Source: Candidatus Magasanikbacteria bacterium GW2011_GWC2_37_14 (GTDB lineage Bacteria > Patescibacteriota > Patescibacteriia > Magasanikbacterales > UBA922). Taken from it: DNA of 64,000 nt. Both the position numbers and the translations under genes were made by a program. Below are positions 1,406 to 62,070 of this stretch, in pieces (the stretch's first letter is position 1; every line of letters starts with the position of its first letter). The notes beneath the pieces are model-generated. The model was not told the DNA's origin and did no database searches. It saw only the letters and a list, made by a program, of their open reading frames with translations. The DNA lies in assembly GCA_000990355.1 (NCBI GenBank), contig LBSX01000002.1:6000-69999 (forward strand). The letters run 5' to 3'.

Positions 1406-1434
1406 CACCCCGCATTTTGCGGGGTGTTTTTTTT
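1406..1434. terminator. rho-independent terminator (bidirectional)
   Basis: acaccccgc-atttt-gcggggtgt stem-loop followed by T8, with an A-run upstream. It sits between the convergent csp gene and the minus-strand 1500-2129 gene. Confidence 0.8.
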
Positions 1435-1443
1435 AATATTTTC

Positions 1444-1497
1444 CCTCCCCTATGAGGGGAGGGGTAGCCTGCCTGCCGGTAGGCAGGGGTGGGGTTT
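1444..1497. repeat. two GC-rich palindromic hairpin modules (family B)
   Basis: ccctcccctatgaggggaggg and gcctgcctgccggtaggcagg. Near-identical modules recur at 37929-37947, 38421-38450 and 47248-47274. Confidence 0.6.
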
Positions 1498-1499
1498 GT

Positions 1500-2129
1500 T
1501 TATTTCTTCTTTTTTGCAACAACTTTTTTTACAGCTGCTTTTGTTTTAGTTTTCTTTTCTTTTGTAGCTTCTTTTTCAACTACTTCTTTAACAACAGTTT
1601 CTTTGGTTTTTTTTGTTTCAGGTTTGCTTTCAGTAACAACTCCCAAAAACTTCATTAATTTATCAATTTTTACATGAAGTTGCTTGATTTGTTCTGTTAC
1701 GTCGCCATTATCTCTACTACCTCTGTTTTCGTCTTTTTTAAAGCAATTACTACAATATACAGGTTTATCAGTTGGTCGAAAAGGCACTTGGCAATTGTCG
1801 CCACATTTAGCGCAAGTAGCATCATGCATCTGGCGATCAGCACCAAAGTTTGGTCTTTCGCGACGGTCGCTGGCAAAATTACTTGGTCTACTGCCGCCAC
1901 CATTGTCTTGCTGTTTGCCAAAGCAATTACTGCAAAACACTGGACGTTCACCAGATGGTCTAAATGGTAATTCACAGTTGTCTCCACATTCACTGCAAAC
2001 AGCCTTAAAACGAGCTGGTTTATCTCCATCACGGTCAAATCTACCTCCACCGCCAAATGATTTACCGCCACCAAATTTACGGCCAAAACCACCACTAGAT
2101 TTTCGATCGTCTCTATTAAAATTTTTCAT
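1500..2129 (-). CDS. Gly/Arg-rich protein with two CxxC..CxxC zinc-ribbon repeats and a Lys-rich C-terminal tail
   Basis: N-terminal GGFGRKFGGG repeats, a twice-repeated C-x2-C-G-x2-C-x2-PFRP-x5-PV(F/Y)CSNCF motif, and a KKTKTKAAVKKVVAKKKK tail that resembles histone H1 or HU tails. Confidence 0.55.
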   Translation of the reverse strand: MKNFNRDDRKSSGGFGRKFGGGKSFGGGGRFDRDGDKPARFKAVCSECGDNCELPFRPSGERPVFCSNCFGKQQDNGGGSRPSNFASDRRERPNFGADRQMHDATCAKCGDNCQVPFRPTDKPVYCSNCFKKDENRGSRDNGDVTEQIKQLHVKIDKLMKFLGVVTESKPETKKTKETVVKEVVEKEATKEKKTKTKAAVKKVVAKKKK

Positions 2130-9859: not shown

Positions 9860-9865
9860 TATAAG

Positions 9866-9937
9866 CTCGGGAGGTGGGGATCGAACCCACGACCATCACG
9901 TTAACAGCGTGCCGCTCTACCGCTGAGCTACTCCCGA
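9866..9937 (-). tRNA. tRNA-Asn (anticodon GTT)
   Basis: Manual cloverleaf: acceptor TCGGGAG/CTCCCGA, D-arm GCTC/GAGC, anticodon loop CTGTTAA, T-arm GTGGG-TTCGATC-CCCAC, discriminator G. CCA is not encoded. Confidence 0.85.
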
Positions 9938-9944
9938 ATATAAA

Positions 9945-10097
9945 ATGTCTGTGTATTCACAGAAACTATGAACACATTAAATACCTTATACTTAAAGTGC
10001 GAAGCGGTACCACTGCCTGCCCGCCAAGCTTGCTGGTGATTGCGCCGGATGGTTGTGGTGTGAACCGAGAGGCGGGGGCTACTCCCGAATATAAATT
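9945..10097. repeat. GC-rich structured island bounded by an 18-19 bp direct repeat that duplicates the tRNA-Asn 5' end
   Basis: gctactcccgaatataaa occurs at 9927-9944 and again at 10078-10095. The roughly 130 bp between them is GC-rich with internal inverted repeats (gcccgcc / ggcgggggc). Confidence 0.4.
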
Positions 10098-10220
10098 GTT
10101 GGTATACTGTAAAATTGTGGTGAAATTATAACAAATAAAAAAACCAGTGTCAATAAGGATTATTAACAAGACGGCCAAAATTTTTGATTTATTTAAATTT
10201 AATGCTAAAATATATCTACT

Positions 10221-19630: not shown

Positions 19631-20927
19631 TTTACCTAAAAAACCAAAAACAAAAAAATTAGTATATTTGGATCATGCCGCTACTACATATGTAAGTCAA
19701 GAGGTAGAAAAAGCCACAAAGCCTTTTATAACCAAGATTTTTGGGAACCCCAGTAGTTTGTATGAACTAGGTAGAATTGCTAATGGTGAATTAAATGATT
19801 GCCGACGTAAAGTGGCGGAGATTTTACACGCCCTGCCTGACAATATTATTTTTACGGGTGGTGGTAGTGAATCAGATAACTTGGCTATTTTTGGTGTTTG
19901 TAGAAAAATTGGTAAAGGTCATATTATTGCTACCAGGATAGAACATCACGCAGTGCTTTATCCTTGCCAACAATTAGAAAAAGAAGGTTTTACTGTTACT
20001 TACCTAGAACCAGATTCACAAGGTTTTATTTCACCCAAAAAAGTTTTAGCGGCAATTAAACCAGACACAATTTTGATTTCTATAATGTATGCTAATAATG
20101 AAATTGGTACTGTAGAACCAATTGCTGATATTGGTCGCGAGATTTTAAAATATCGTAAAGCCAACAATCCTTCGGCAGGCTCAGGACAAGTTCAGTATCC
20201 TATTTTTCATACCGATGCTTGCCAAGCCGGTGGAGTGCTGGAATTAGATGTAGAAAAATTACATGTGGACCTAATGACACTTAATGGTAGTAAAATTTAT
20301 GGACCAAAAGGTGTGGGTTTGCTTTACAAACGTCGTGGAGTAAATATTCAACCACTTATTTTTGGTGGTGGTCAAGAAATGAATTTGCGTAGTGGTACTG
20401 AAAATTTAGCTGGCATTGTAGGTTTTACCAAAGCTTTGGAAATTGCTCAAGAAAATCGTCACGAAGAAAATATGCGTTTAGTAGATTTGCGCAATTATTT
20501 TTTTGATCAAATACAAAAGAATATTAAAAATATTAGACTCAATGGTCCCCAACTTCACTCTGATAAAAATCAGAGTTACACTGGGCAAGCTGGTTCTGAA
20601 GTTCTAAACAGATTACCTAACAATCTAAATATTACATTTATTGATGTAGAAGGTGAGGCAATGCTTCTTTATTTAGATGCTTACGGAATTTGTTGTTCTA
20701 CTGGTTCGGCTTGTACTTCAATGTCATTAGAACCTTCACATGTTCTTACCGCTTTAGGTTTGCCCTATGAATACGCTCATGGTAGTTTAAGATTTACTTT
20801 GGGTTATTGTAATACAAAACAAGATATTGATTATGTAATGAGATACTTACCAGCAATTGTAGAAAAATTACGGGAAATGAGTCCGGTGCAGATGGGGAAA
20901 GTTCAACATGCCAAATATAAAAAATGA
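19620..20927 (+). CDS. nifS: cysteine desulfurase (NifS/IscS type)
   Basis: PLP-lysine region GSKIYGPKG and active-site Cys loop CCSTGSAC. The ORF could start 9 nt earlier, at 19611. Confidence 0.9.
   Translation: MTNNLPKKPKTKKLVYLDHAATTYVSQEVEKATKPFITKIFGNPSSLYELGRIANGELNDCRRKVAEILHALPDNIIFTGGGSESDNLAIFGVCRKIGKGHIIATRIEHHAVLYPCQQLEKEGFTVTYLEPDSQGFISPKKVLAAIKPDTILISIMYANNEIGTVEPIADIGREILKYRKANNPSAGSGQVQYPIFHTDACQAGGVLELDVEKLHVDLMTLNGSKIYGPKGVGLLYKRRGVNIQPLIFGGGQEMNLRSGTENLAGIVGFTKALEIAQENRHEENMRLVDLRNYFFDQIQKNIKNIRLNGPQLHSDKNQSYTGQAGSEVLNRLPNNLNITFIDVEGEAMLLYLDAYGICCSTGSACTSMSLEPSHVLTALGLPYEYAHGSLRFTLGYCNTKQDIDYVMRYLPAIVEKLREMSPVQMGKVQHAKYKK
20168..20191 (+). repeat. 24-bp GC-rich in-frame repeat (family C), copy in nifS
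   Basis: tccttcggcaggctcaggacaagt, same reading frame as the typA copy. It encodes PSAGSGQV. Confidence 0.6.
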
Positions 20928-21024
20928 CAAATTACTAATATCTAATACCTAATGAAATGACAAATTTTAAAATTTAACATTAAGAATTTCATTAGAAATT
21001 AGTAATTAGACATTAGAAATTATT

Positions 21025-22650: not shown

Positions 22651-24135
22651 ATGAAAAATTTTTATTTAACAACTACACTTCCATATGTAAATGCCGAACC
22701 TCACATTGGTTTTGCTTTGGAAATTATTCAAGCTGATGTAATTGCTCGTTATCATAAGTTGCTAGGTGAAGAAGTAATTTTTAATACTGGTACTGATGAG
22801 CATGGTTTAAAAATATATCGTAAAGCAATAGAACTGGGTGTTGAACTACAAAAATATTGCGACGAATATGCTGCCAAGTTCGATGCTTTAAAGCAAGCCT
22901 TAAATTTAAGTTATACTCATTTTATTCGTACTACCGACCCACATCATCTCAAAGCTGCTCAGGAATTTTGGTTACGTTGTGAAAAAAATGGTGATATTTA
23001 TAAAAAGAATTATAAAGTAAAATATTGTGTAGGTTGTGAATTAGAAAAAACTGATTCCGAATTGGTAGACGATAAATGTCCAGTGCATCCAAATTTAAAT
23101 ATTGAATTAATTGAAGAAGAAAATTATTTTTTTAAATTTTCTAAATTTCAAAAGCCATTACTGGAACTTTATAAAAAGAATCCAAAATTTGTTATTCCAG
23201 CCAATCGTCAATTAGAAATAAAAAACTTTGTGGAAAAAGGTTTGGAAGATTTTAGTATTTCTAGATTAAAAGAAAAAATGCCTTGGGGTATTCCAGTGCC
23301 AAATGATGCTGATCATGTAATGTACGTTTGGTTTGATGCTCTTATAAACTATATATCTACATTAGGTTGGCCAGAAGATGAAAATAATTTTAATAATTTT
23401 TGGCCAGGAATTCAAGTAGCCGGAAAAGATAATTTACGCCAACAATCGGCAATGTGGCAAGCAATGCTGTTGTCTGCAGGGTTGCCAACGTCAAAACAGA
23501 TATTTATTCATGGTTTTATTACCTCCGAAGGACAAAAAATGAGTAAGAGTTTCGGTAATGTTGTTGAACCTTATAAAATTGTAGATAAATATGGCACTGA
23601 TGCCACGCGTTATTTCTTGCTTGGTGGTTTGCCTTCATATGAAGATGGTGATTTTTCTATTGAACGTTTTGAAGAATTTTATACTGCTCATCTTGTAAAT
23701 GGAGTAGGGAATTTATCAAGTCGAATTTTGACGATGATTGAAAAATATTCAGAATCAAAAATACCAGCTCAAATAGCAGATAACAAATATCAGTTAACAG
23801 AATTTTGGGCAAGTTATGATAAATTTATTAATGAATATAGATTTGAATCAATTGTTGAATTGGTGAATAGTCTTGTTGGCCAACTTGATGGAATGATTTC
23901 AACAGAAAAACCATGGGAAAAAGCGAAAAAAGGTGAAGATATTTCTGGTTTACTTTATCAACTAGCTGAAGGTTTGCGTCATATTGCTGTAGCACTTTTA
24001 CCAATTATTCCCGAAACTGCAGAAAAGATTTTAAAACAATTAGGCACAGAAGATACTTCGCGCGACTGGGGAAAATTAGAAGAAGGTGGTATAATAAAAA
24101 AAGGCGTGATACTTTTCCCAAGACTGGAAAAATAA
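22651..24135 (+). CDS. metG: methionyl-tRNA synthetase
   Basis: HIGH-like PHIGFA, KMSKS (KMSKSFGN) and CxxC zinc knuckles. Short form without the C-terminal dimerisation domain. Confidence 0.9.
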   Translation: MKNFYLTTTLPYVNAEPHIGFALEIIQADVIARYHKLLGEEVIFNTGTDEHGLKIYRKAIELGVELQKYCDEYAAKFDALKQALNLSYTHFIRTTDPHHLKAAQEFWLRCEKNGDIYKKNYKVKYCVGCELEKTDSELVDDKCPVHPNLNIELIEEENYFFKFSKFQKPLLELYKKNPKFVIPANRQLEIKNFVEKGLEDFSISRLKEKMPWGIPVPNDADHVMYVWFDALINYISTLGWPEDENNFNNFWPGIQVAGKDNLRQQSAMWQAMLLSAGLPTSKQIFIHGFITSEGQKMSKSFGNVVEPYKIVDKYGTDATRYFLLGGLPSYEDGDFSIERFEEFYTAHLVNGVGNLSSRILTMIEKYSESKIPAQIADNKYQLTEFWASYDKFINEYRFESIVELVNSLVGQLDGMISTEKPWEKAKKGEDISGLLYQLAEGLRHIAVALLPIIPETAEKILKQLGTEDTSRDWGKLEEGGIIKKGVILFPRLEK

Positions 24136-24265
24136 TTTTCATTTTACAATTTACAATTTTCAATAAATTATCAATTTTCAATTACCAATTTGGAAATTGT
24201 TTCATTGAAAATTTATTGTAAATTGATTATTGATAATTGTAAATTTTATTTTTTAATTTTTTATG
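24136..24265. repeat. AT-rich TTTNCAA heptamer array containing a 22-bp block identical to one upstream of atpF
   Basis: ttttacaa/tttacaa/ttttcaa... repeats. ttgaaaatttattgtaaattga at 24205-24226 is identical to 31141-31162. Confidence 0.45.
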
Positions 24266-24842: not shown

Positions 24843-26696
24843 ATGAGGAAATATTTACTAATGTTTATTTTATTATTTATTACTGGTTGTACCGGTGTTT
24901 CTTTAGTTAACGAACAAAACACAACAACAAATAATAAAATAAATTATCAATACAGCAAACCTTGGGATAAAGAATTGTTTGATAATTTTTATAAAAATAA
25001 ATTATCACCAACCTCAACTTTACCAAGTATTAAAGGTGGAATTATTCCTCATCATTTATTGGCAGGTAACTATATTGCCAGTTTTTTGGCTACCTTGGAA
25101 AAACAAAAACCCAGTGTCGTAGTTCTAATTGGTCCTAATCATTTTAGCGAAGGTCGGGGACAAGTAATTTCTTCAGTTTGGGATTGGCAAACTCCTTATG
25201 GTGTTTTGAAAACAAATGAAGAATTATTGAATAAATTGCACGACGAAAAATTTATAACTTTTGAAAATAATGTTTTTAAAACCGAACATAGTATTAATGG
25301 ACCAATAGCATTAATTAAAAAAATTCTACCCAAGACAACTATTATACCGCTTATTTTAAAAAATAATTTAAGCAACAAAGAATTGGATAATTTATCAATC
25401 AAATTAAAAGAAATTTTACCGGCTGACGCAGTAATTATTTCTTCCATAGATTTTTCACATTATCAAACATTAAACGCGGCTAATCTCCATGATGAATTTA
25501 GCGAAAGTGTAATCGCTAGTTTTGATTATACACGATTAAAAACTTTGGAAATTGATTCTGTACCTTCGTTATATGTGCTTTTAAAATTAATGGATAGTTA
25601 TGGTACTAAGAAAATTGTTCAGGCTTGGCACAGTAATAGTGCCGAAATTACTGGTCAACCAGATTTAGCACAATCTACTAGTTATTATTTACCACTATTT
25701 GGTAAAGGAGAAGCGAATACAGAAAAAGTTGCTAGTTTGTTATTTTTTGGCGACATGATGTTGGATAGGAACGTGGCCAAAAGAATAAGTGAAAATGGAG
25801 CAGATTATATTTTTACAAAATTAGCTGGTGAAGAAAATCGCTTTTTAAAAGGCGTGGATATTATTCATGCAAATTTGGAGGGGCCATTTGCCAATTATCG
25901 TCGACCCACGACCAAAGAAATTGCTTTTCAATTTAATCCGGAATTAATAAGTACTTTGAAAAAATATAATTTTAATTTGTTTTCAGTTGCCAATAATCAT
26001 ACTTTGGATATGGGTAGTGCCGGTTTGGCAGAATCAAAAGAAAATTTAACTAATGCTGGTTTGGAATTTTATGGTGATGGCTATGATATTGGACAGGATG
26101 CAACTCTTTTTAAAGAAATTGGAGGAGTTAAAATTGGTTTTGTGGGTTTCAATGACACCTATTTCCCACTGAGCGAAGAAAAAATTATTAATAAAATTAA
26201 ATTAGCCAAAGCCCAAAGTGACCTGGTAGTGGTAAATATTCACTGGGGATCAGAATATAAAGTTTTAAAATCCAATCAACGCCAACAATCTTTGGCGCAT
26301 TTAATGATTGATAACGGGGCTGATATAATTATTGGTCATCACCCACATGTAGTACAAGAGATGGAGATTTATAAAGATAAACCCATATTTTATTCTTTGG
26401 GAAATTTTGTTTTTGATCAGTATTTTTCCCAAGAAACCCAAGAAGAAATGGGTGTCGGTTTAGTCTGTCATTGCGAGGACGAAGGACAAAGCAATCCCAA
26501 TGATGTAAAAATAAGTCAGTGTCAGAAAAAATCTTTATCAATTTATGTCTTTCCTTTACAAAGTGTTAACAGCCAAATCAGTCAAATGCCACCTGAAAAT
26601 GGCAAAATTTGGTTTAAAAATTTTGTTGACAGTAGTCGTTTGAACGGCTATAATTTTGATACTAATAAACATTTAAATTTAATTTATGAAAAATAA
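24843..26696 (+). CDS. lipoprotein: N-terminal Memo/extradiol-dioxygenase-B-like domain fused to a C-terminal CapA (PGA_cap) metallophosphatase-like domain
   Basis: Lipobox LFITGC. CapA-like block FFGDMM...ANNHTLDMG...NIHWGSEY...IIGHHPHVVQ. The N-terminal GIIPHHLLAGNY region resembles Memo/LigB-type folds, but weakly. Confidence 0.55.
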   Translation: MRKYLLMFILLFITGCTGVSLVNEQNTTTNNKINYQYSKPWDKELFDNFYKNKLSPTSTLPSIKGGIIPHHLLAGNYIASFLATLEKQKPSVVVLIGPNHFSEGRGQVISSVWDWQTPYGVLKTNEELLNKLHDEKFITFENNVFKTEHSINGPIALIKKILPKTTIIPLILKNNLSNKELDNLSIKLKEILPADAVIISSIDFSHYQTLNAANLHDEFSESVIASFDYTRLKTLEIDSVPSLYVLLKLMDSYGTKKIVQAWHSNSAEITGQPDLAQSTSYYLPLFGKGEANTEKVASLLFFGDMMLDRNVAKRISENGADYIFTKLAGEENRFLKGVDIIHANLEGPFANYRRPTTKEIAFQFNPELISTLKKYNFNLFSVANNHTLDMGSAGLAESKENLTNAGLEFYGDGYDIGQDATLFKEIGGVKIGFVGFNDTYFPLSEEKIINKIKLAKAQSDLVVVNIHWGSEYKVLKSNQRQQSLAHLMIDNGADIIIGHHPHVVQEMEIYKDKPIFYSLGNFVFDQYFSQETQEEMGVGLVCHCEDEGQSNPNDVKISQCQKKSLSIYVFPLQSVNSQISQMPPENGKIWFKNFVDSSRLNGYNFDTNKHLNLIYEK

Positions 26697-28640: not shown

Positions 28641-29771
28641 ATGATGATTGACACTCACTGTCATATACAATTCAATTCATATAAAGACGATTATGAAGAA
28701 GTAATAAAAAGATGCACTGAAAAGGGTATGATTTTGAATTGTGTGGGTTCACAAATTGATACTAGTAGACGAGCAGTAGAGTATGCGGAAAAGTATGAAA
28801 ATATTTATGCCACCATTGGGCTTCACCCCGTGCATTTGTTTTCCAGTGAAGTAGATGAAGAAGAAACAAAATTTAAAACGCGTGAAGAAAAGTTTGATTA
28901 TGAAGAATATAAAAAATTAGCAGAACACCCCAAAGTGATTGGCATAGGGGAGTGTGGCTTAGAATTATTTCATCTTCCAAAAGATGCTAACAAAGATGAA
29001 ATTTTGGCAAAACAAAAAGAAGGATTTTTGTTACAATACAAATTGGCACAAGAATTAGCCTTGCCAATGGTAATTCATGTACGTGATGCTTATGATGAAA
29101 TGGTAGAGTTTCTAACTGTCATTGCGAGGAGGTCAACAGCCGACGAAGCAATCCCCAGTCAGAATGGGATTGCCACACCTCGTTCGGGCGAGGTTCGCAA
29201 TGACATTTGTGGAGTAGTGCATTGTTACTCTGGTAATTGGGCTCAGGCCTCTAAATTCATTGATTTAGGCCTGTACCTAGGCTTTACTGGGATTCTAACC
29301 TATCCAACAAGAAAAACCAACCCAAAGCCTACAGAAGACCTTGTAGAGGTAGTTAAAAATTGTCCTATAGAGCGAATTTTAATCGAAACAGACGCTCCTT
29401 ATCTAGCACCGCAGAAATATCGTGGACAGCGTTGCGAGCCATGGATGGTAGAAGAAGTTGCTGTAAAAATAGCAGAAATAAAGGGAATAAGTGTAGAAGA
29501 AGTTCGAGAACAAACAGTAAAAAATGCTTTGAAATTGTTTAAAAAATTAGATATTTGGCATTTTCATACTTGTCCCCAAGCAAATCTAAAAATCCCCTTG
29601 ACCAAAGAGGGGTTTTTTAGTAAAATATGTGCGTTCTTCAATAAACAATATTCAAGAAGTATATGGCTCTTTTACCTACTGATTCCAAGGATCGTCAATA
29701 TATGTTACTTGGTTTGCGCATTGCTGGTGATTTTGGTGCTACAATTGCTGTTCCAATTGTTCTTTTTGTAA
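28641..29771 (+). CDS. tatD: TatD-family metal-dependent hydrolase (with a MITE insertion and an unusual C-terminal read-through)
   Basis: HxH (DTHCH), GECGLE, HCYSG and ETDAPYL TatD motifs. There is no in-frame stop until 29771, so the ORF overlaps the atp promoter and atpZ. Confidence 0.8.
   Translation: MMIDTHCHIQFNSYKDDYEEVIKRCTEKGMILNCVGSQIDTSRRAVEYAEKYENIYATIGLHPVHLFSSEVDEEETKFKTREEKFDYEEYKKLAEHPKVIGIGECGLELFHLPKDANKDEILAKQKEGFLLQYKLAQELALPMVIHVRDAYDEMVEFLTVIARRSTADEAIPSQNGIATPRSGEVRNDICGVVHCYSGNWAQASKFIDLGLYLGFTGILTYPTRKTNPKPTEDLVEVVKNCPIERILIETDAPYLAPQKYRGQRCEPWMVEEVAVKIAEIKGISVEEVREQTVKNALKLFKKLDIWHFHTCPQANLKIPLTKEGFFSKICAFFNKQYSRSIWLFYLLIPRIVNICYLVCALLVILVLQLLFQLFFL
29117..29205 (+). 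mobile_element. MITE-like element (family A-related) with 11-bp perfect terminal inverted repeats, in-frame inside tatD
   Basis: tGTCATTGCGA...TCGCAATGACa plus an internal gcaatccc/gggattgc hairpin. Adds about 29 aa between the conserved TatD motifs. Confidence 0.55.
29598..29626 (+). promoter_or_regulatory. sigma70-like promoter for the atp operon (overlapping a hairpin)
   Basis: TTGACC (29598-29603), 17-nt spacer, TAAAAT (29621-29626). The spacer forms a cccct-tgaccaaag-agggg-T6 stem-loop. Confidence 0.5.
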
Positions 29772-31020: not shown

Positions 31021-31172
31021 TTTCGACCCAATGGACTGAATGGTCTGTTGGGATGGGAACGTTTTAAATTTACAATTACTCAATTTACAGTTTTCAATAA
31101 ATTTACAATTACTCAATTTTCAAATTGATAAATTGTAGGATTGAAAATTTATTGTAAATTGAAAATTAAAAA
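31021..31172. repeat. AT-rich TTNCAA heptamer array and roughly 35-bp tandem duplication upstream of atpF
   Basis: aaatttacaattactcaattt occurs twice (31066-31086 and 31103-31123), and the 22-mer at 31141-31162 is identical to 24205-24226. Confidence 0.45.
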
Positions 31173-37194: not shown

Positions 37195-37399
37195 TCCACA
37201 GTTTAAGTGGTCTTGACAGTTTTCATACTAAATTAGTATACTATACTTAGTTTAAGTCACTTTTTAATTATAATTATATGTGTGGTGGATGTTCTTGCTA
37301 AATTAGCCAAAAATATCCCGACTAAGTCGGGATATTTTTTTATTGCCTTTTTTATACTTGGATGCTAGAATAGTGTACATATACAAGCTAAAAGAGAGC

Positions 37400-40384
37400 A
37401 TGAAAGATCTGAATTTAGAACAAAAACAAGCAGTAGAATACACCTCTGGTCCGCTTTTGATTGTCGCCGGAGCTGGTACTGGTAAAACTACAGTAATCAC
37501 CCAAAAGATTACTTTTTTGGTTAAGCAAAATTTGGCCAAACCCGAAGAAATTTTGGCTTTAACTTTTACAGAAAAGGCAGCCGGGGAGATGCAGGAGCGC
37601 GTGGATCAACTATTGGATTTGGGTTATTCAGACATGCAGATTTCAACTTTTCATGCTTTTTGTCAAAAACTTTTAGAATTTCATGGGCTAGACATTGGCT
37701 TGTCAAATCAATTTAAATTATTAACTCCCACTGATGCTTGGCTCTTGGTACGTAAAAATTTAGATAAATTTAATTTGGATTATTATCGACCCCTGGGTAA
37801 TCCTACGCGCCATATCCATGAATTAATTAAACATTTTTCTAAGTGTAAGGATGAATTAATTACGCCAGCAGAATATTTAAAATATGCGGAAGAAGTGAGT
37901 TTGGATGATGATGCCGACCCCACCCCATCCTCCCCTACAAGGGGAGGGGAACGTAAGCGTCTCACTGAAATAGCTAATGCTTATCATACTTATAATCAAC
38001 TTTTGCTGGATAATAATTGTCTGGACTTTGGTGATCTAATTTTTTATGGCCTTAAATTGTTAAAAGAACGGCCAAATATTTTAAAATTATTGCAAAATAA
38101 ATATAAATATATTTTGGTTGACGAGTTTCAAGATGTTAATTATGCACAGTATGAATTGGTAAAATTGTTTACGACTAATGGAAATCAGTTAACAGTTGTG
38201 GGAGACGATGACCAGTCAATTTACGCCTTCCGCGGAGCATCGGTTTCCAATATCTTACGTTTTAAAGATGATTTTCCTAATGCCAAAGAAATTGTTTTAA
38301 CAGAAAATTATCGTTCAGGCCAAGAAATATTAGATTTAGCCTATAAATCAATACAAAATAATAATCCCGATCGTCTAGAGATTAAATTAAATATCAATAA
38401 ACAATTAAAGTCAGTAGTTAGTAGCCTGCCTGCCGGCGAGGCAGGTCTAAAGTCTGAAGTCGAATACAAGCATTTTAATACTTCAACTGAAGAAATTAAT
38501 TTTGTAATTAATAAAATTTGTGAGATTTGTAAAGATGAATCTGTAGTTTTGTCAGATTTTGCAATTTTAATTCGCGCCAATAGTCAGGCCGAACCGTTTA
38601 TTAATGCTTTTGAAAAAGTTGGTCTGCCTTATGAGTATCTGGCTTCGTCTGGATTATATCGCCAGCCATTAATTTTAGATTGTATTAACTTTTTAAAAGT
38701 ATTGGACAACTATCACGAATCCAGTGCTATTTTTCGTTTATTACATTTACCTTTTTTAAAATTTAATCCAGATGATTTACAAAAAATAACCTATTTTTCT
38801 AAGAAAAAAAGCATTTCTTATTATGAAACTCTAAAACGTGGATTGGAAATTAATTTATCAAAAACAGGTATTGAAATAGTCAATAAATTGTTAAATATAA
38901 TAAACAGTGGCACACAAATGGCCAAGGAAAAAAAACCTATAATAATTTTATTAGATTTTTTAGAACAAAGTGGTTATTTTAAATATCTTGCCTTGGAAGA
39001 TGAACAAGGTAATAGAGAAATAATTAAACAAATTAAAGAGCTACGAAGTTTTTTTGAAGAAGTTAAACACTACGAAGAATCAGTGCCTCAAGCACGCGTG
39101 TCAGATTTTTTGGAACATTATAATTATATTTTAGAGTCTGGTGATGAAGGGCAAATGTTTAAAAATCTAGAAGAAACAGAAGCGATAAAAATTTTAACGA
39201 TTCATTCTGCCAAGGGCTTAGAATTTAAATATGTTTTTGTTGTTAACTTGGTGGAAGAACGTTTTCCTAGTCGTAAACGTGGAGAAGCTATTGAATTGCC
39301 TGTATCATTAATTAAAGAAAATCTATCAGAAGTGGATTACCATGTTAATGAAGAAAGACGTTTATTTTATGTGGCCTGTACCAGAGCCAAAGAAAAATTA
39401 TTTTTAACTAGCGCGGATGATTATGGTGGGGTGAGAAAGAAGAAAGTTAGTAGGTTTATTGATGAATTAAATTTAAGTATGGAAGCAAGGCAACAATATA
39501 ACAATGTAACTATTGACACATTGCCACATTGTCACACTGTTGACAAAAAAGATATTAATCAGTCTAAAAGTACTACAATTTTATCTGACACCTTTTCCTA
39601 CTCCCAAATCAATTCATATCTTCGCTGTCCTTATCAGTATAAATTAGCCCATGTATTAAAAATTCCTACCACAGGCAATGCTAGTTTTAGTTTTGGTTCA
39701 ACTATACATAATACTTTACAAAAATTTTATAACCAGGTTATTGAATTAAATAGTATTAAACAAGATTCGTTGTTTGTTCAACATACTACAACTAAACAAG
39801 TTGGAGAAATAAAAGTTCCAACATTGGATAATTTACTAAAATTTTATAAAGATTCTTGGCAAGATGACTGGTATCAAAATAAACAACAACGAGAGGAATT
39901 TTACAAAAAAGGACATAAAATATTGGAAATATTTTATTCTTCAGAGCAAAAAAATGGCTGGACTGTGCCAGTTTTTCTAGAGAGCGGTTTTAAAATTAAA
40001 ATAGGAGATTATTTTATAAATGGACGCATAGATCATATTGATAAATTATCGGCTGGTGCTTTAAAGATTATTGATTATAAAACCGGTAAAGCTAAAGAAA
40101 AAGTAGTTGGCGATGATAAAAATCAACTGCTAATTTATCAAATTGCCGCGGAAATTTTACCTGAATACAAAAATATTGGCCCAGTTAGTGAATTAACTTT
40201 TTATTATTTAGAAGAAAATCTTACAACGTCTTTTGTTGGCGACGATAAAGACAAAACAAAACTACAAGAAAAAATTATCAAAACAATTGGGGAAATAAAC
40301 GATTCTAATTTTGTTGCCACACCCAGTGAACACATTTGTCAGCATTGTGATTTTAGAGACATTTGTCAGTTTAGACAATTATAA
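37400..40384 (+). CDS. UvrD/PcrA-like SF1 helicase fused to a C-terminal PD-(D/E)XK (RecB/Cas4-like) nuclease
   Basis: Motif I AGAGTGKT and motif II DEFQD. C-terminal region with IDYKTGK and a Cys cluster CQHCDF..C. Contains two short GC-palindrome inserts. Confidence 0.85.
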   Translation: MKDLNLEQKQAVEYTSGPLLIVAGAGTGKTTVITQKITFLVKQNLAKPEEILALTFTEKAAGEMQERVDQLLDLGYSDMQISTFHAFCQKLLEFHGLDIGLSNQFKLLTPTDAWLLVRKNLDKFNLDYYRPLGNPTRHIHELIKHFSKCKDELITPAEYLKYAEEVSLDDDADPTPSSPTRGGERKRLTEIANAYHTYNQLLLDNNCLDFGDLIFYGLKLLKERPNILKLLQNKYKYILVDEFQDVNYAQYELVKLFTTNGNQLTVVGDDDQSIYAFRGASVSNILRFKDDFPNAKEIVLTENYRSGQEILDLAYKSIQNNNPDRLEIKLNINKQLKSVVSSLPAGEAGLKSEVEYKHFNTSTEEINFVINKICEICKDESVVLSDFAILIRANSQAEPFINAFEKVGLPYEYLASSGLYRQPLILDCINFLKVLDNYHESSAIFRLLHLPFLKFNPDDLQKITYFSKKKSISYYETLKRGLEINLSKTGIEIVNKLLNIINSGTQMAKEKKPIIILLDFLEQSGYFKYLALEDEQGNREIIKQIKELRSFFEEVKHYEESVPQARVSDFLEHYNYILESGDEGQMFKNLEETEAIKILTIHSAKGLEFKYVFVVNLVEERFPSRKRGEAIELPVSLIKENLSEVDYHVNEERRLFYVACTRAKEKLFLTSADDYGGVRKKKVSRFIDELNLSMEARQQYNNVTIDTLPHCHTVDKKDINQSKSTTILSDTFSYSQINSYLRCPYQYKLAHVLKIPTTGNASFSFGSTIHNTLQKFYNQVIELNSIKQDSLFVQHTTTKQVGEIKVPTLDNLLKFYKDSWQDDWYQNKQQREEFYKKGHKILEIFYSSEQKNGWTVPVFLESGFKIKIGDYFINGRIDHIDKLSAGALKIIDYKTGKAKEKVVGDDKNQLLIYQIAAEILPEYKNIGPVSELTFYYLEENLTTSFVGDDKDKTKLQEKIIKTIGEINDSNFVATPSEHICQHCDFRDICQFRQL
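37913..37950 (+). repeat. GC-rich palindrome (family B), in-frame in the helicase gene
   Basis: gaccccacccc...cctcccctacaaggggagg is near-identical to the module at 1444-1464. Encodes PTPSSPTRGGE. Confidence 0.6.
38421..38450 (+). repeat. GC-rich palindrome (family B), in-frame in the helicase gene
   Basis: gtagcctgcctgccggcgaggcagg is near-identical to 1466-1487. Encodes SLPAGEAGL. Confidence 0.6.
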
Positions 40385-52184: not shown

Positions 52185-52955
52185 ATGACTAAAAAAACTT
52201 TGATAATTCTACCTGGATGGGGTGGAAACAAAGAAACGTGGAAAAATTTTGCAGAACTTGCGAGCAAAGATTTTGACGTACATATTATTGAATTGCCGTG
52301 TTTTGGCGATGAACCCTGCCCAAAAACAGTTTGGGATATTGAAGATTATGTTGAGTTTGTTAAAAATAAACTTCTTGAGCGTCATTCCCGCGAAGGCGGG
52401 AATCTTAAATTGGTGAAAGATCCCCGTTTTCACGGGGATGACGCAGTGCTATTAGGTCACTCATTTGGTGGACAAGTAGCCACGGTCTTTGCTTCCAAAT
52501 ACCCAGAGATGATTGAAAAACTTATTTTAACAGCACCGGCTGTTTTCCGCCCTAAAAAAACTTTTCGACGAGTAGTTTTCAATATTGGAGCAAAATTTGG
52601 TAAATTAATTTTTAAAATTCCTTGGATAGAAAATGGTTCCCTCTGGGCCGAAAAAATTTATCACCAAGCAATTGGTGCCAAAGATTATCATGATAGTTCG
52701 GGCATTAAACGAGAAATTTTTAAAAATATTATTCGTCAAGACAGGGGAGTGGAAGCTAGTAAAATTACTATACCAACTCTAATTGTTTGGGGTACAATGG
52801 ATGGTTATCTACCAGTTGCTGATGCTAATCAATTGAATAAATTAATAAAAAACTCTAAACTTGAAATAGTTAATGGTGGAAGACATGGATTACACCTACA
52901 AATACCAGAAAAACTTTTATATTTAATAAAATCTTTTCTTGAAAAAAATATATGA
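52185..52955 (+). CDS. alpha/beta hydrolase
   Basis: GHSFGG nucleophile elbow. Contains an in-frame palindromic insert just upstream of it. Confidence 0.7.
   Translation: MTKKTLIILPGWGGNKETWKNFAELASKDFDVHIIELPCFGDEPCPKTVWDIEDYVEFVKNKLLERHSREGGNLKLVKDPRFHGDDAVLLGHSFGGQVATVFASKYPEMIEKLILTAPAVFRPKKTFRRVVFNIGAKFGKLIFKIPWIENGSLWAEKIYHQAIGAKDYHDSSGIKREIFKNIIRQDRGVEASKITIPTLIVWGTMDGYLPVADANQLNKLIKNSKLEIVNGGRHGLHLQIPEKLLYLIKSFLEKNI
52380..52443 (+). mobile_element. MITE-like element (family A-like, GTCAT...ATGAC termini), in-frame in the hydrolase gene
   Basis: cGTCATtcccgc-gaag-gcgggaatc...gatccccg-ttttca-cggggATGACg: two subterminal hairpins. Encodes RHSREGGNLKLVKDPRFHGDD. Confidence 0.55.
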
Positions 52956-57838: not shown

Positions 57839-58040
57839 ACGTCGCACAATGTATATTATACGACGCTATATAGTAAGTAAAACCCTTCTTTCTACTACTT
57901 TCGATAATCCTAAACTAATCTTATTATTTACACCTCATTTGCGTCGTATAATATCAACCAGATTGTACAACAAAAAGTTGTCGCACAATCTGGTTATTCA
58001 ATAGCACGTATAATATTTATTTTATAAAATATTTTCTAAT
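57839..58040. repeat. structured intergenic region with nested inverted and direct repeats
   Basis: 13-bp perfect inverted repeat atattatacgacg (57853-57865) / cgtcgtataatat (57942-57954). GTCGCACAAT is repeated at 57841 and 57980. There is a long hairpin aaccagattgtacaac-aaaaa-gttgtcgcacaatctggtt. The whole region is bracketed by terminators. Confidence 0.5.
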
Positions 58041-58044
58041 AATT

Positions 58045-58067
58045 AAAAGGCCGTTTAACGGCCTTTT
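58045..58067. terminator. bidirectional rho-independent terminator
   Basis: aaaa-ggccg-tttaa-cggcc-tttt, downstream of the minus-strand M23 peptidase gene. Confidence 0.7.
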
Positions 58068-58096
58068 ATAATACATTTATACCCTTAATTTAGCAT

Positions 58097-61242: not shown

Positions 61243-62070
61243 TTAAATCTTACTTAATAAAATTCCACAAGCTACAGCCACATTAAGTGATTCGGCTTGC
61301 CCTGCCTTCGACCCGAGCTCAGGCCGAGGGTAGCCTGCCGAAGGGCAACCTAGAATAGTATACTTATTATCTAGCATTTTTTCAACTTCTGGTCGTATTC
61401 CGTGCGATTCACTACCAAAAACATAAATATTCATATTTTTCTTATTAACTTTGTCCAACTTATCACCATTCATTACCATGCCATTAAGCACATAACCATT
61501 TTTTTGAAGCTTTGTAAGGTCTTGAACAACATTAGTACTCTCTAAAATATTTAGATGAAAAATAGAACCCATAGTACTCCGCACAGCTTTAGGATTGTAT
61601 AAATCCACGCAATCTTCGGATAATAATATGCTTTTAACACCAAACCAATCTGCAGTGCGAATAATTGTTCCCAAATTTCCTGGGTCTTTAACCCCGTCTA
61701 AACAAATAATTGTCCCGTCAAAATCATTTAAAATTACTTTTGGTTGTTTTATAACAGCCAAAATCCCAGGAAAAGTCTCAGTGGTTTTAAGTTTCTTGGC
61801 TTCTTTTTCGTTACAATATTCAATCAAAATATCATTTTTGGTAGCCAGGTTAATTAAATCTAAAAAATCTGGCTCACTATCCTTTGTTTTTTCAATTACT
61901 AACAAAACAACATTCGCTTGAGCAAGCATTGCTTCTTTTACACCTTTAACACCTTCAACAATAAATTCACCCTGTGCTTGGCGAAATTTCTTTTGCTCTA
62001 TCTTATTTAAATGTTTTAGACTTTTTTGTGAAAGCATAAATAATAAATAAAAACTACTGTCGCCTTCCAA
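61243..62070 (-). CDS. SpoU/TrmH-family RNA 2'-O-methyltransferase (RlmB-like)
   Basis: Motifs ICLDGVKDPGNLGTIIRTA and ESLNVAVACGILL. Has a C-terminal in-frame GC-rich insert. Confidence 0.8.
   Translation of the reverse strand: MEGDSSFYLLFMLSQKSLKHLNKIEQKKFRQAQGEFIVEGVKGVKEAMLAQANVVLLVIEKTKDSEPDFLDLINLATKNDILIEYCNEKEAKKLKTTETFPGILAVIKQPKVILNDFDGTIICLDGVKDPGNLGTIIRTADWFGVKSILLSEDCVDLYNPKAVRSTMGSIFHLNILESTNVVQDLTKLQKNGYVLNGMVMNGDKLDKVNKKNMNIYVFGSESHGIRPEVEKMLDNKYTILGCPSAGYPRPELGSKAGQAESLNVAVACGILLSKI
61293..61350. repeat. GC-rich palindromic insert inside the spoU-like gene (related to families B and C)
   Basis: ttgccctgccttcg...gagctcaggccgagggtagcctgccgaagggcaa. Shares gtagcctgcc with family B and ccttcg...gctcagg with family C. 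Encodes about 12 extra aa (GYPRPELGSKAGQA) before the ESLNV motif. Confidence 0.55.

What the first reader, a model, noticed from the sequence alone, without database searches (positions are those of the whole stretch)
29117..29205. tatD carries an 89-bp element with perfect 11-bp terminal inverted repeats (TGTCATTGCGA / TCGCAATGACA)
This is the clearest MITE-like signature in the window: a perfect TIR, an internal hairpin (gcaatccc/gggattgc) and elevated GC. It adds about 29 aa (ARRSTADEAIPSQNGIATPRSGEVRNDI) between conserved TatD motifs, and the gene stays open. The same tatD ORF also lacks a stop codon at the expected C-terminus and reads through the atp promoter hairpin into atpZ. That is either a genuine extension or a sequencing or assembly issue.
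Basis: seen in the sequence. Interest (0 to 1): 0.7.

Follow-up and report, generated by a model that had tools for sequence, protein, structure and literature searches.

The report
Palindromic repeat inserted in-frame in tatD
The 89-bp palindrome in tatD is a real copy of a widespread bacterial hairpin repeat (the "CGTC-tagged" REP kind that includes the Rickettsia palindromic elements), inserted in-frame so that it probably adds a floppy 29-residue surface loop; the kind is known, but it had not been reported in this group of ultra-small bacteria.

Summary
Window 29117-29205 is TGTCATTGCGA...TCGCAATGACA, a perfect 11-bp inverted repeat. It has an inner 8-bp hairpin and about 60% GC in a 33% GC genome.

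The in-frame part is 87 nt (29118-29204), which is 29 codons. It lies in the loop between a helix and the strand carrying the invariant His194 of an otherwise intact TatD.

It is not a classical MITE. Related copies show no target-site duplication. The anatomy matches the CGTC-tagged REP superfamily of Di Nocera et al. 2013, which includes Rickettsia RPE-4 and RPE-6:
- outward TGTC/CGTC tags
- stems that start with AT
- CCN tails
- a head-to-head dimer

No transposase is linked.

Three observations add to what is known:
- This TatD loop, and one loop of an alpha/beta hydrolase in the window, are insertion hot spots holding at least five hairpin-repeat families in Magasanikbacteria relatives.
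- At least five other genes in the window carry in-frame hairpin inserts.
- Against a 91%-identical orthologue, the element's arms show 0 changes in 70 positions, while fourfold sites differ by 40%.

The missing tatD stop codon is real in the deposited sequence. Its cause is unresolved.

The parts
29117..29205 (+). Whole element: a head-to-head dimer of two CGTC-type REP units with the tags outward (TGTC...GACA). The 87 nt at 29118-29204 are read as 29 codons of tatD.
   Evidence: family anatomy and PMC3733652
29117..29156 (+). Left unit: tag TGTC (29117-29120), closing stem ATTGC (29121-29125) / GCAAT (29148-29152) around a 22-nt interior with a GTC..GAC mini-hairpin, then tail CCCC (29153-29156).
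   Evidence: The same GAGGAGGTC-loop-GAC(C)GACGAAGCAATC arm occurs in at least 120 metagenome loci.
29166..29205 (-). Right unit, in inverted orientation: tag TGTC on the minus strand (29202-29205), closing stem ATTGC (29169-29173) / GCAAT (29197-29201), and an own hairpin CCTCG-TTCGGG-CGAGG (29178-29193).
29148..29173 (+). Central hairpin GCAATCCC / GGGATTGC with a 10-nt loop. This alternative pairing joins the two units. Six of the 8 differences from the orthologue fall in or at the top of it.
28641..29771 (+). tatD ORF (TatD_DNase domain at aa 3-301). The normal C-terminus is expected near 29545-29570. Instead the ORF continues for about 70 codons through the terminator/promoter and into atpZ.
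29543..29548 (+). A6 run. With one A fewer the frame would read ...LFKN followed by TAG, a C-terminus of normal length.
   Evidence: read; compared with orthologue ends; inference
29594..29626 (+). Terminator-like hairpin CCCCTT..AGGGG plus a T run, overlapping a TTGACC-17-TAAAAT promoter-like site for the atp operon. This stretch is conserved in two relatives.
26465..26506 (+). Truncated second copy of the same family (cTGTCATTGCGAGGACGAAGGACAAAGCAATCCC, then AATGAT). It is read in another frame (CHCEDEGQSNPND) inside the Memo/PGA_cap ORF 24843-26696.
52380..52443 (+). Canonical CGTC-1-type head-to-head dimer: CGTC-ATTCCCGC-GAAG-GCGGGAAT-CTT...GAT-CCCCG-TTTTCA-CGGGG-AT-GACG. It is in-frame in the alpha/beta hydrolase ORF 52185-52955 (RHSREGGNLKLVKDPRFHGDD). 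It belongs to the same superfamily and shows the phenomenon is not confined to tatD.
   Evidence: peptide match to R. conorii CGTC-1 inserts (CHSRESGNP, DSRFRGND)

Best explanation
The element is a head-to-head dimer of CGTC-tagged repetitive palindromes. This is a REP/REPIN-like, non-autonomous hairpin repeat of the superfamily that contains Rickettsia RPE-4 and RPE-6.

Shown:
- It sits in the coding sequence of tatD in a Candidatus Magasanikbacteria genome.
- It lies exactly in the loop between helix 151-164 and strand 191-194.
- It has stayed stop-free and in-frame since before this genome split from a 91%-identical relative.

Inferred:
- It is transcribed and translated with the gene. It adds a disordered 29-residue loop on the face of the TIM barrel opposite the active site, so the enzyme tolerates it.
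- It spread as selfish or neutral DNA by a mechanism that leaves no target-site duplication. Candidates are single-strand hairpin transposition by a still unidentified enzyme, or recombination or copying between hairpins.
- Selection keeps only copies that land in permissive loops in an open frame.
- Its arms are held constant at the nucleotide level. The cause could be whatever recognises the repeat, a need for the hairpin, or gene conversion from sister copies.
For: 1. Insertion in an intact gene.
- The gene matches Pfam TatD_DNase at E = 7e-70.
- Solved TatDs align on both sides of the segment and skip it.
- 46 of 120 close homologues have a short loop.
- Catalytic and invariant residues are present.
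- The AF2 model has pLDDT 92 overall but 56-69 and coil for residues 165-190. That stretch lies between helix 151-164 and strand 191-194, and the fold matches TatD structures with TM 0.9.

2. Repeat family.
Hosts include Alpha-, Gamma- and Deltaproteobacteria, Bacteroidota, Cyanobacteria, Chloroflexota, Planctomycetota, Zixibacteria, Patescibacteria and others.
- The arm variant found in the window also hit the 120-locus limit in metagenomes.
- A truncated second copy and a canonical CGTC-1 dimer lie in the window itself.

3. Anatomy matches CGTC REPs (PMC3733652).
- In 70 related copies position -1 is C in 50 and T in 20; position +1 is a purine in 68.
- Stems start with AT, tails are CCN, and the tags face outward (an HH dimer).
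- The paper reports intragenic dimers that encode 20-30 aa.

4. No target-site duplication in 65 of 70 copies.
- No RAYT-like gene was found in 0.98 Mb of window plus loci.
- No gene family beyond common housekeeping families recurs near copies; only the six largest clusters were identified by Pfam.
- This agrees with the paper's statement that CGTC repeats lack a transposase.

5. Long in-frame persistence and nucleotide-level constraint.
- Against L001, tatD fourfold sites are 59.8% identical, yet the element has only 8 differences in 87 nt.
- All 8 lie in two hairpin loops, and the other 70 positions show none.

6. Independent recurrent insertion.
- TatDs with this type of element are 82-90% identical in the core to TatDs with another element or none, but only 58-77% identical to each other outside two small groups of close relatives (the window's own orthologue, 92%, and a three-member clade, 80-82%).
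- L250 and L251 (86% nt identity downstream of the loop) carry different dimers, with the junction shifted by one codon.
Against: - Each unit has only a 5-bp closing stem (ATTGC/GCAAT) around 22-23 nt. The published CGTC families have 8-9 bp stems and 4-5 nt loops.
- I could not see the consensus figure of the 2013 paper, so I cannot say whether this 'ATTGCGAG' type is one of its four families.
- Filled and empty sites do not differ by a clean insertion. The element replaces 3-5 codons of the loop. The insertion event itself is therefore not reconstructed.
- Translation of the insert is inferred, not shown.
- The near-perfect conservation of the arms is more than a purely neutral passenger would show.
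- The lost stop codon raises the possibility that this particular tatD is decaying.
Confidence: 0.75

Rival explanations
1. The hairpin has been taken over by the host. As RNA or DNA it may pause ribosomes, set mRNA stability or processing, or bind a protein. On this view its arms are conserved because of that function, and the peptide is a by-product.
For: - 0 of 70 arm positions changed while fourfold sites diverged 40%, and amino-acid identity of the insert (83%) is lower than that of the rest of TatD (93%).
- The fold is strong (-41 kcal/mol, z = -3.75).
- The 2013 paper argues that many REPs act as RNA elements.
Against: - 46 of 120 close homologues do without any insert, and others carry unrelated repeats in the same loop.
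- In another clade the same type of element has clearly decayed (P0029, P0035 and P0053; right end TCTCGCGATGAC in L126).
- Only one orthologous pair was available.
- There is no covariation, because the stems simply do not vary.
Confidence: 0.15
2. It is a classical MITE: a deletion derivative of an insertion sequence, moved by a DDE transposase that recognises the 11-bp terminal inverted repeats.
For: It has perfect terminal inverted repeats, falls in the 70-300 bp size range, occurs in many copies, and encodes no protein.
Against: - No target-site duplication in 65 of 70 copies.
- No transposase family recurs within 8 kb of about 120 copies, among the clusters checked.
- The ends carry the CGTC/TGTC tag and AT-start stems of REPs.
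- The arms hold independent, non-complementary hairpins, which is heterodimer architecture.
Confidence: 0.07
3. The segment is not translated. It is removed from the mRNA or bypassed by the ribosome, like the GC-rich 'byp' elements of yeast mitochondria or the gene 60 hop of phage T4.
For: It is a stable GC-rich hairpin inside an AT-rich coding sequence. The comparison with those systems is from general knowledge.
Against: - The length is exactly 29 codons with no stop.
- The orthologue keeps frame and openness despite 8 substitutions.
- All 47 long inserts seen in homologues are in-frame in called proteins. Ascertainment favours this result.
- Two of the three frames of the element are open in either orientation. 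That fits selection of readable insertions.
Confidence: 0.02
4. It is an assembly artefact or chimera in a metagenome-assembled genome.
For: The genome is a MAG, and the nearby loss of the stop codon could be an assembly error.
Against: - The same insert at the same codon is present in two independent assemblies from other samples (L001 from JGI, L002 from ENA).
- Related inserts occur in dozens of other TatD genes.
Confidence: 0.01

Closest known systems
CGTC-tagged REPs (Di Nocera, De Gregorio & Rocco 2013, BMC Genomics 14:522; PMC3733652)
   Same: - Unpaired terminal tag CGTC/TGTC.
- Stems that begin with A-T pairs.
- A short CCN tail.
- A predominant head-to-head dimer with the tags outward.
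- Dispersed copies in many phyla, some of them in-frame inside genes, where dimers encode 20-30 aa.
- No target-site duplication and no linked transposase.
- The window's hydrolase insert (52380-52443) is a textbook CGTC-1 unit with an 8-bp stem and a GAAG loop.
   Different: - The tatD element's units have a 5-bp closing stem around 22-23 nt with their own mini-hairpins, not the 8-9 bp stems and 4-5 nt loops of the published families.
- Its two arms pair better with each other than within a unit.
- The host phylum (Patescibacteria/CPR) is not among the five phyla listed for CGTC repeats.
- Hot-spot turnover in one protein loop was not described. The paper notes only that different REPs lie at about the same site in two Xanthomonas recB genes.
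Rickettsia palindromic elements (RPEs; Ogata et al. 2000, cited from memory; summarised in PMC10969869 and PMC3733652)
   Same: - Palindromic repeats inserted in-frame in many unrelated housekeeping genes.
- The inserts are compatible with the protein fold.
- RPE-6 and RPE-4 are CGTC-1 and CGTC-4 repeats.
- Peptides such as VIPAKAGI, CHSRESGNP and DSRFRGND recur in the CPR inserts.
   Different: - RPE-1-type elements are about 150 bp and specific to their lineage.
- Rickettsia is an obligate intracellular alphaproteobacterium.
- Here several families share single hot-spot loops.
REPINs and RAYT transposases (GTAG-tagged REP doublets; Bertels & Rainey 2011 and Nunvar et al. 2010, cited from memory)
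   Same: - Two inverted REP units form one long hairpin.
- The element is non-autonomous and leaves no duplication.
- Its sequence persists for a long time.
   Different: - The tag is CGTC/TGTC, not GTAG.
- No RAYT-like gene was found in 0.98 Mb searched.
- The literature reports none for CGTC repeats.
Bacterial MITEs found inside genes (ERIC, Coxiella QMITE1, Correia/NEMIS; reviewed in PMC10969869)
   Same: They are small, hairpin-forming, non-coding repeats that are sometimes fused in-frame to host ORFs.
   Different: MITEs have IS-derived inverted ends and target-site duplications. Neither feature is seen here.

Membership tests
CGTC-tagged REP superfamily (PMC3733652) | Unpaired terminal tetranucleotide CGTC (variants TGTC and CCTC are allowed) | tested here: met
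   TGTC lies at 29117-29120, and TGTC on the minus strand at 29202-29205. In 70 related copies position -1 is C in 50 and T in 20, never a purine.
CGTC-tagged REP superfamily (PMC3733652) | Stem whose first two pairs are complementary A/T residues | tested here: met
   ATTGC...GCAAT in both units (29121-29125/29148-29152 and 29169-29173/29197-29201).
CGTC-tagged REP superfamily (PMC3733652) | Stem of 8-9 bp and loop of 4-5 nt | tested here: not met
   The tatD units have a 5-bp closing stem enclosing 22-23 nt. The hydrolase insert at 52380-52406 does meet this feature, with an 8-bp stem and a GAAG loop.
CGTC-tagged REP superfamily (PMC3733652) | Short unpaired tail, consensus CCA | tested here: met
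   The tail is CCC(C) at 29153-29156 and GGG at 29166-29168. By eye, most relatives listed have CCA or CCAG; this was not counted.
CGTC-tagged REP superfamily (PMC3733652) | Mostly head-to-head dimers (tags outside) | tested here: met
   Both tags are at the outer ends.
CGTC-tagged REP superfamily (PMC3733652) | Multi-copy, dispersed family within a genome | tested here: inconclusive
   Only 64 kb of this genome is available. It holds one full copy, one truncated copy and one CGTC-1 dimer. Other genomes have 2-5 matches per 8 kb locus, and metagenome contigs L210 and L248 hold two copies each.
CGTC-tagged REP superfamily (PMC3733652) | No associated transposase gene | tested here: met
   No RAYT/TIRYT hit by tblastn in the window plus 129 loci. 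Neighbouring genes are only common housekeeping families, among the six largest clusters checked.
MITE | Terminal inverted repeats | tested here: met
   11 of 11 nt are perfect, and 13 of 14 with the flanks.
MITE | Target-site duplication flanking the element | tested here: not met
   None at 29117/29205 (flanks ctaac|...|tttgt). None in 65 of 70 relatives. None at the filled/empty pairs.
MITE | A parent insertion sequence with the same ends | not testable with these tools
   No IS library could be searched. No transposase recurs near about 120 copies, among the clusters checked.
REPIN-RAYT system | GTAG-tagged REP doublet flanking, or co-occurring with, a RAYT (Y1 HUH) gene | tested here: not met
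   The tag is TGTC/CGTC, and there was no RAYT-like hit. The whole genome could not be searched.
Rickettsia palindromic elements | Palindromic repeat inserted in-frame in a housekeeping gene, lying in a loop compatible with the fold | tested here: met
   29 codons with no stop, in an alpha-to-beta loop modelled as a low-confidence coil.
Rickettsia palindromic elements | Sequence membership in one of the named RPE families | tested here: inconclusive
   No RPE consensus was available. The link is only at superfamily level, through RPE-6 = CGTC-1 and RPE-4 = CGTC-4. The window's hydrolase insert encodes HSREGGN..PRFHGDD, which resembles R. conorii CHSRESGNP and DSRFRGND.
TatD_DNase (PF01026), host gene | Full-length domain match and metal-binding residues | tested here: met
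   E = 7.4e-70 with profile positions 1-253 of 253 matched. H6, H8, E104, H146, H194 and D251 are invariant across 110 sequences and present here. The model has TM 0.87-0.91 (normalised to the target) to the closest solved TatD structures.

The most novel reading that the evidence does not exclude
In Magasanikbacteria and related CPR bacteria, single alpha-to-beta loops of enzymes behave as 'cassette' sites. Several families of hairpin repeats invade them and replace one another. These include CGTC-type REPs of at least three sequence types, CCCCTCC-type hairpins and short AT-rich hairpins. Their arms are maintained at the nucleotide level. This would imply an active, hairpin-directed insertion or replacement machinery with regional target preference, possibly the still unknown mobilising enzyme of CGTC repeats. 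The alternative is random insertion filtered by protein tolerance.
Probability: 0.2. Interest if true: 0.7.

Novelty: new member of a known kind. Interest (0 to 1): 0.45.

Why it matters
In-frame palindromic repeats are a known way for selfish DNA to lengthen proteins, with Rickettsia as the classic case. This window shows the same superfamily at work in the Candidate Phyla Radiation, whose genomes are small and streamlined, and in at least six genes within 64 kb.

Three consequences follow:
- Length differences and 'extra loops' in CPR proteins, and many tiny hypothetical ORFs with motifs such as VIAS..KQS or ..ARNDK, can be read as repeat insertions. They need not be lineage-specific protein features.
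- The hot-spot loops offer many natural filled, empty and replaced alleles of one site. That is the material needed to work out how CGTC repeats move, and no transposase is known for them.
- The contrast between untouched arms and saturated synonymous sites gives a testable sign that the repeat, not the peptide, is what is conserved.

Tried and rejected
- **Rfam.** Searches at gathering and permissive thresholds on the element and on a Bradyrhizobium copy gave only chance-level hits.
- **Full-text search by sequence.** Searching for the DNA words and the peptide words (GTCATTGCGAG, RFARND, VIASEAKQS and others) returned only unrelated primer matches.
- **Linked transposase.** All-against-all clustering of 2,779 ORFs near about 120 copies found recurring clusters; the six largest were ABC transporters, short-chain dehydrogenases, response regulators, alpha/beta hydrolases and EF-G, and the smaller ones were not identified.
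- **RAYT/TIRYT search.** Queries taken from the 2013 paper's supplement gave no tblastn hit in 0.98 Mb.
- **Target-site duplication.** None was found.
- **Reconstructing a clean insertion.** I compared three filled/empty pairs at the DNA level. In every case the element replaces 3-5 codons, so the exact breakpoints stay undefined.
- **A covariance model was considered and dropped.** The conserved stems do not vary, and the variable parts do not align.
- **Insert as an ancestral TatD feature.** Rejected on phylogenetic patchiness.
- **Element family as contamination or adaptor artefact.** Rejected, because copies occur in complete isolate genomes such as Bradyrhizobium, Pedobacter, Sphingomonas and Sporomusa.
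Full report
**1. The observation**

The sequence at 29117-29205 reads TGTCATTGCGAGGAGGTCAACAGCCGACGAAGCAATCCCCAGTCAGAATGGGATTGCCACACCTCGTTCGGGCGAGGTTCGCAATGACA.
- The outer 11 nt are a perfect inverted repeat, and 13 of 14 nt pair when the flanks are included.
- GCAATCCC/GGGATTGC forms an inner hairpin.
- GC reaches 0.57-0.62 against a window mean of 0.327.

On its own the inverted repeat is only suggestive. An 11-nt repeat with at least 5 G/C within 100 nt is expected 0.34 times per 64 kb in first-order Markov simulations. The other evidence is stronger:
- The stretch folds far better than shuffles: -41 kcal/mol as RNA (z = -3.75) and -23.6 kcal/mol as DNA (z = -4.07).
- Its terminal word occurs three times in the window against 0.29 expected.
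- It is an insertion relative to homologues (section 2).

The part that is read is 29118-29204. That is 87 nt or 29 codons, VIARRSTADEAIPSQNGIATPRSGEVRND.

**2. The host gene**

ORF 28641-29771 is a TatD-family hydrolase (PF01026, E = 7e-70, whole profile matched). The window comes from Candidatus Magasanikbacteria bacterium GW2011_GWC2_37_14, whose annotated protein is 100% identical.
- Solved TatD structures align on both sides of the segment and skip it.
- An AlphaFold model built on 110 homologues has mean pLDDT 92.4. It places the insert as low-confidence coil (pLDDT 56-69, residues 165-190) between helix 151-164 and strand 191-194, which ends in the invariant His194.
- The model matches TatD crystal structures with TM about 0.9.
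- In a TIM barrel the catalytic residues sit at the C-terminal ends of the strands. This is established knowledge. A helix-to-strand loop is therefore on the opposite face, which is the expected place for a tolerated insertion. This step is an inference.

**3. What the element is**

Hosts include:
- Alpha-, Gamma- and Deltaproteobacteria (many Bradyrhizobium)
- Bacteroidota
- Cyanobacteria
- Chloroflexota
- Planctomycetota
- Zixibacteria
- Nitrospirales
- Patescibacteria
- Helicobacter rodentium and Sporomusa

Seventy-two full elements of 68-179 nt share one plan:
- Y|GTCATTGCGAG
- a variable arm, often with its own small hairpin
- GAAGCAATCC(AG)
- a variable spacer
- GGATTGCTTCG
- a second arm
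- CTCGCAATGAC|R

The specific arm variant of the window (GAGGAGGTC-loop-GAC(C)GACGAAGCAATC) also hit the 120-locus limit in metagenomes.

Other properties of the family:
- Element GC stays at 0.42-0.66 whatever the host GC (0.37-0.72). In low-GC hosts most copies are intergenic.
- Position -1 is always a pyrimidine (C in 50, T in 20) and position +1 is a purine in 68 of 70.
- 65 of 70 copies have no target-site duplication.
- No recurring neighbour gene beyond common housekeeping families was found, although only the six largest clusters were identified.
- No RAYT-like Y1 transposase was found in 0.98 Mb.
- Rfam has no matching family.

**4. Match to the literature**

Di Nocera, De Gregorio and Rocco (BMC Genomics 2013; PMC3733652) defined 'CGTC-tagged' REPs by these features:
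- An unpaired CGTC tag, often TGTC or CCTC.
- A stem beginning with A-T pairs.
- A 4-5 nt loop.
- A 3-nt CCA-like tail.
- Mostly head-to-head dimers with the tags outside.
- Presence in five phyla.
- No associated transposase.
- A minority of copies in-frame inside genes, where dimers encode 20-30 residues.

They equate Rickettsia RPE-6 and RPE-4 with CGTC-1 and CGTC-4. Their table of intragenic copies lists VIPAKAGI, SFPRKRES, CHSRESGNP, DSRFRGND and WIPAFAGMT.

How the window compares:
- The tatD element has the tag (TGTC on both outer ends), the AT-start stems (ATTGC/GCAAT), the CCC tail and the head-to-head arrangement.
- Its units have only a 5-bp closing stem around 22-23 nt. It is therefore a variant in geometry.
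- I could not see the paper's consensus figure, so I cannot say whether this type is one of its four families.
- A second element in the window, at 52380-52443, is a textbook CGTC-1 dimer (CGTC-ATTCCCGC-GAAG-GCGGGAAT-CTT...). It is in-frame in an alpha/beta hydrolase and encodes RHSREGGN...DPRFHGDD.

'MITE-like' is therefore the wrong drawer. REP, REPIN or RPE-like is the right one.

Neither that paper, a 2025 REP survey (PMC12306157), nor a combined full-text search links such repeats with CPR/Patescibacteria.

**5. Hot spot**

Among the 120 closest TatD homologues, the alignment stretch spanning the end of the helix, the loop and the start of the strand varies as follows:

| Stretch length | Number of homologues |
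|---|---|
| 17-22 residues | 46 |
| 23-29 residues | 27 |
| 33-61 residues | 47 |

About three-quarters of the sequences with a sizeable insertion (47 of about 61) have it in this one block.

At least five repeat types occupy the loop:
- The VIA[RS]..KQS..IA..ARNDK type, as in the window.
- The CGTC-1 VIPAKAGI..RGND type.
- A VIPTE/CHPERSEGS..RDSSA..(QNDK/LGMTK) type.
- A PL.RGG/PPYEGG type.
- An EKSF..KDSS type.
- Short hairpins such as ELRTKNSEL and ILNLKSSI.

One protein, P0010, has one type nested inside another.

The types do not follow the TatD tree:
- Proteins with the window's type are 82-90% identical in the core to proteins with another type or none. They are only 58-77% identical to one another outside two small groups of close relatives: the window's own orthologue (92%) and one three-member clade (80-82%).
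- At the DNA level, L250 and L251 are 86% identical downstream of the loop. They carry two different CGTC-type dimers whose junctions differ by one codon, so they are independent insertions.

Filled and empty sites never differ by a clean insertion. The element replaces 3-5 codons.

The alpha/beta hydrolase shows the same picture. It has one hypervariable loop, just before the ..LLGHSFGG strand, and that loop holds the same repeat families.

**6. The phenomenon is genome-wide**

Besides tatD, in-frame GC-rich hairpin inserts lie in five other genes of the window:

| Gene | Position of the insert |
|---|---|
| Memo/PGA_cap | 26465-26506, a truncated copy of the tatD type read in another frame |
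| UvrD/PD-(D/E)XK helicase-nuclease | about 37915-37955 |
| Alpha/beta hydrolase | 52380-52443 |
| SpoU methylase | about 61290-61345 |
| WecG/TagA glycosyltransferase | about 62540-62680, five small hairpins encoding about 45 residues |

**7. Constraint on the arms**

The only orthologue with the same insert (L001/L002, two independent assemblies) compares with the window as follows:

| Region | Nucleotide identity | Amino-acid identity |
|---|---|---|
| tatD outside the insert | 86.0% | 93.2% |
| Fourfold degenerate sites outside the insert | 59.8% (52 of 87) | not applicable |
| The 87-nt element | 90.8% (8 differences) | 82.8% |

- All 8 differences in the element fall in the two hairpin loops. 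The remaining 70 positions are identical.
- At the neutral rate that has a probability of about 1e-12 to 1e-16. On third codon positions alone it is about 1e-4.
- The flanks differ right up to the element's edges.

The nucleotide sequence of the arms is therefore conserved, not the peptide. Possible causes are selection on the repeat itself, gene conversion from sister copies, or a younger age than the flanks suggest. I cannot separate these. In another clade (P0029, P0035, P0053) the same type has visibly decayed. This rests on one orthologous pair.

**8. The stop codon**

In the window the frame after ...KNALKLF continues KKLDIWHF... to 29771.
- It crosses a terminator-like hairpin and an overlapping TTGACC-17-TAAAAT site. 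Both are conserved in two relatives.
- It then runs into the atpZ/AtpI-like ORF (PF09527).
- The relatives stop 5-7 codons after LF.
- The window lacks about 13 nt present in L001 at that point.
- One A fewer in the A6 run at 29543-29548 would give ...LFKN-TAG (read).
- The deposited protein carries the extension.

Without reads I cannot tell a mutation from an error. If the loss is real, transcripts ending at the terminator would have no stop codon. This is an inference.

**9. Verdict**

- It is imprecise in class: a CGTC-tagged REP dimer, not a MITE.
- The kind is known. The host lineage, the multi-family hot spots and the arm conservation are new observations of moderate interest.

Noticed in passing
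window 52380-52443: A canonical CGTC-1-type REP head-to-head dimer lies in-frame in alpha/beta hydrolase ORF 52185-52955, just before the GHSFGG nucleophile strand. Homologues show one hypervariable loop there, with the same repeat families as the TatD loop.
   Followed up: yes
window 62540-62680 (minus strand, ORF 62016-62888): The WecG/TagA glycosyltransferase carries an in-frame array of about 45 residues (LPHSFQEGVGLPDMPSRQAGGVAEADETPANSTGLRPPPLRKRRI). It is made of five small GC-rich hairpins, and local GC reaches 0.70.
   Followed up: partly
window about 61290-61345 (minus strand, ORF 61243-62070): The SpoU methylase has a GC-rich (0.68) stretch encoding CPSAGYPRPELGSKAGQA immediately before the conserved ESLNV motif. 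This places it in the C-terminal part of the domain, and the Pfam match stops short there.
   Followed up: partly
window 37915-37955 (ORF 37343-40384): The UvrD/PD-(D/E)XK helicase-nuclease contains the hairpin CCTCCCCT-aca-AGGGGAGG in-frame (..DPTPSSPTRGGERK..). The 2013 paper notes that REPs often sit in UvrD and RecBCD-type genes.
   Followed up: partly
window 26465-26506 (ORF 24843-26696): A truncated copy of the tatD-type element lies in a Memo/PGA_cap fusion protein. It is read in a different frame (CHCEDEGQSNPND) and lies after the end of the PGA_cap domain match.
   Followed up: partly
window 29543-29771: tatD has lost its stop codon. Its ORF reads through a terminator hairpin that overlaps the atp promoter and then into atpZ. 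An A6 run is a plausible site of a one-base error or mutation.
   Followed up: partly
window 9925-10104: Next to tRNA-Asn (9865-9937, minus strand) there is a 120-nt stretch with GC 0.67. The 19 nt gctactcccgaatataaa at the 5' end and leader of the tRNA are repeated at 10078-10096. There is no Rfam hit and no unusual fold. It could be a second small RNA gene sharing the promoter and leader, or a remnant.
   Followed up: partly
window 20920-21024, 24128-24251, 31082-31167: Long, imperfect AT-rich inverted repeats built from 7-nt-like units (AAATTGT / ACAATTT) lie in intergenic regions. Similar units appear at the 3' end of tatD in relatives and, translated, as KIENCKLKI-type loop inserts.
   Followed up: no
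window 1429-1518: Intergenic GC-rich hairpins CCCTCCCCT-atg-AGGGGAGGGG and GCCTGCCTGCC-ggta-GGCAGGGG follow a terminator at 1401-1431. They are of the same type as the 'PL.RGG' inserts seen in proteins.
   Followed up: no
window 57856-57951 and 57956-57995: An intergenic 11-nt perfect inverted repeat TTATACGACGC/GCGTCGTATAA, 74 nt apart, is followed by an 18-nt hairpin and a terminator at 58044-58068. This could be a small RNA or a regulatory region.
   Followed up: no
loci L006-L125 and L130-L249: The arms of the 'ATTGCGAG' elements often hold unrelated small hairpins (GGCCCC-aaa-GGGGCC, GCCC-gtta-GGGC, GGTC-loop-GACC). The left and right arms are often not complementary to each other, so small stem-loops appear to be added in a modular way.
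   Followed up: partly
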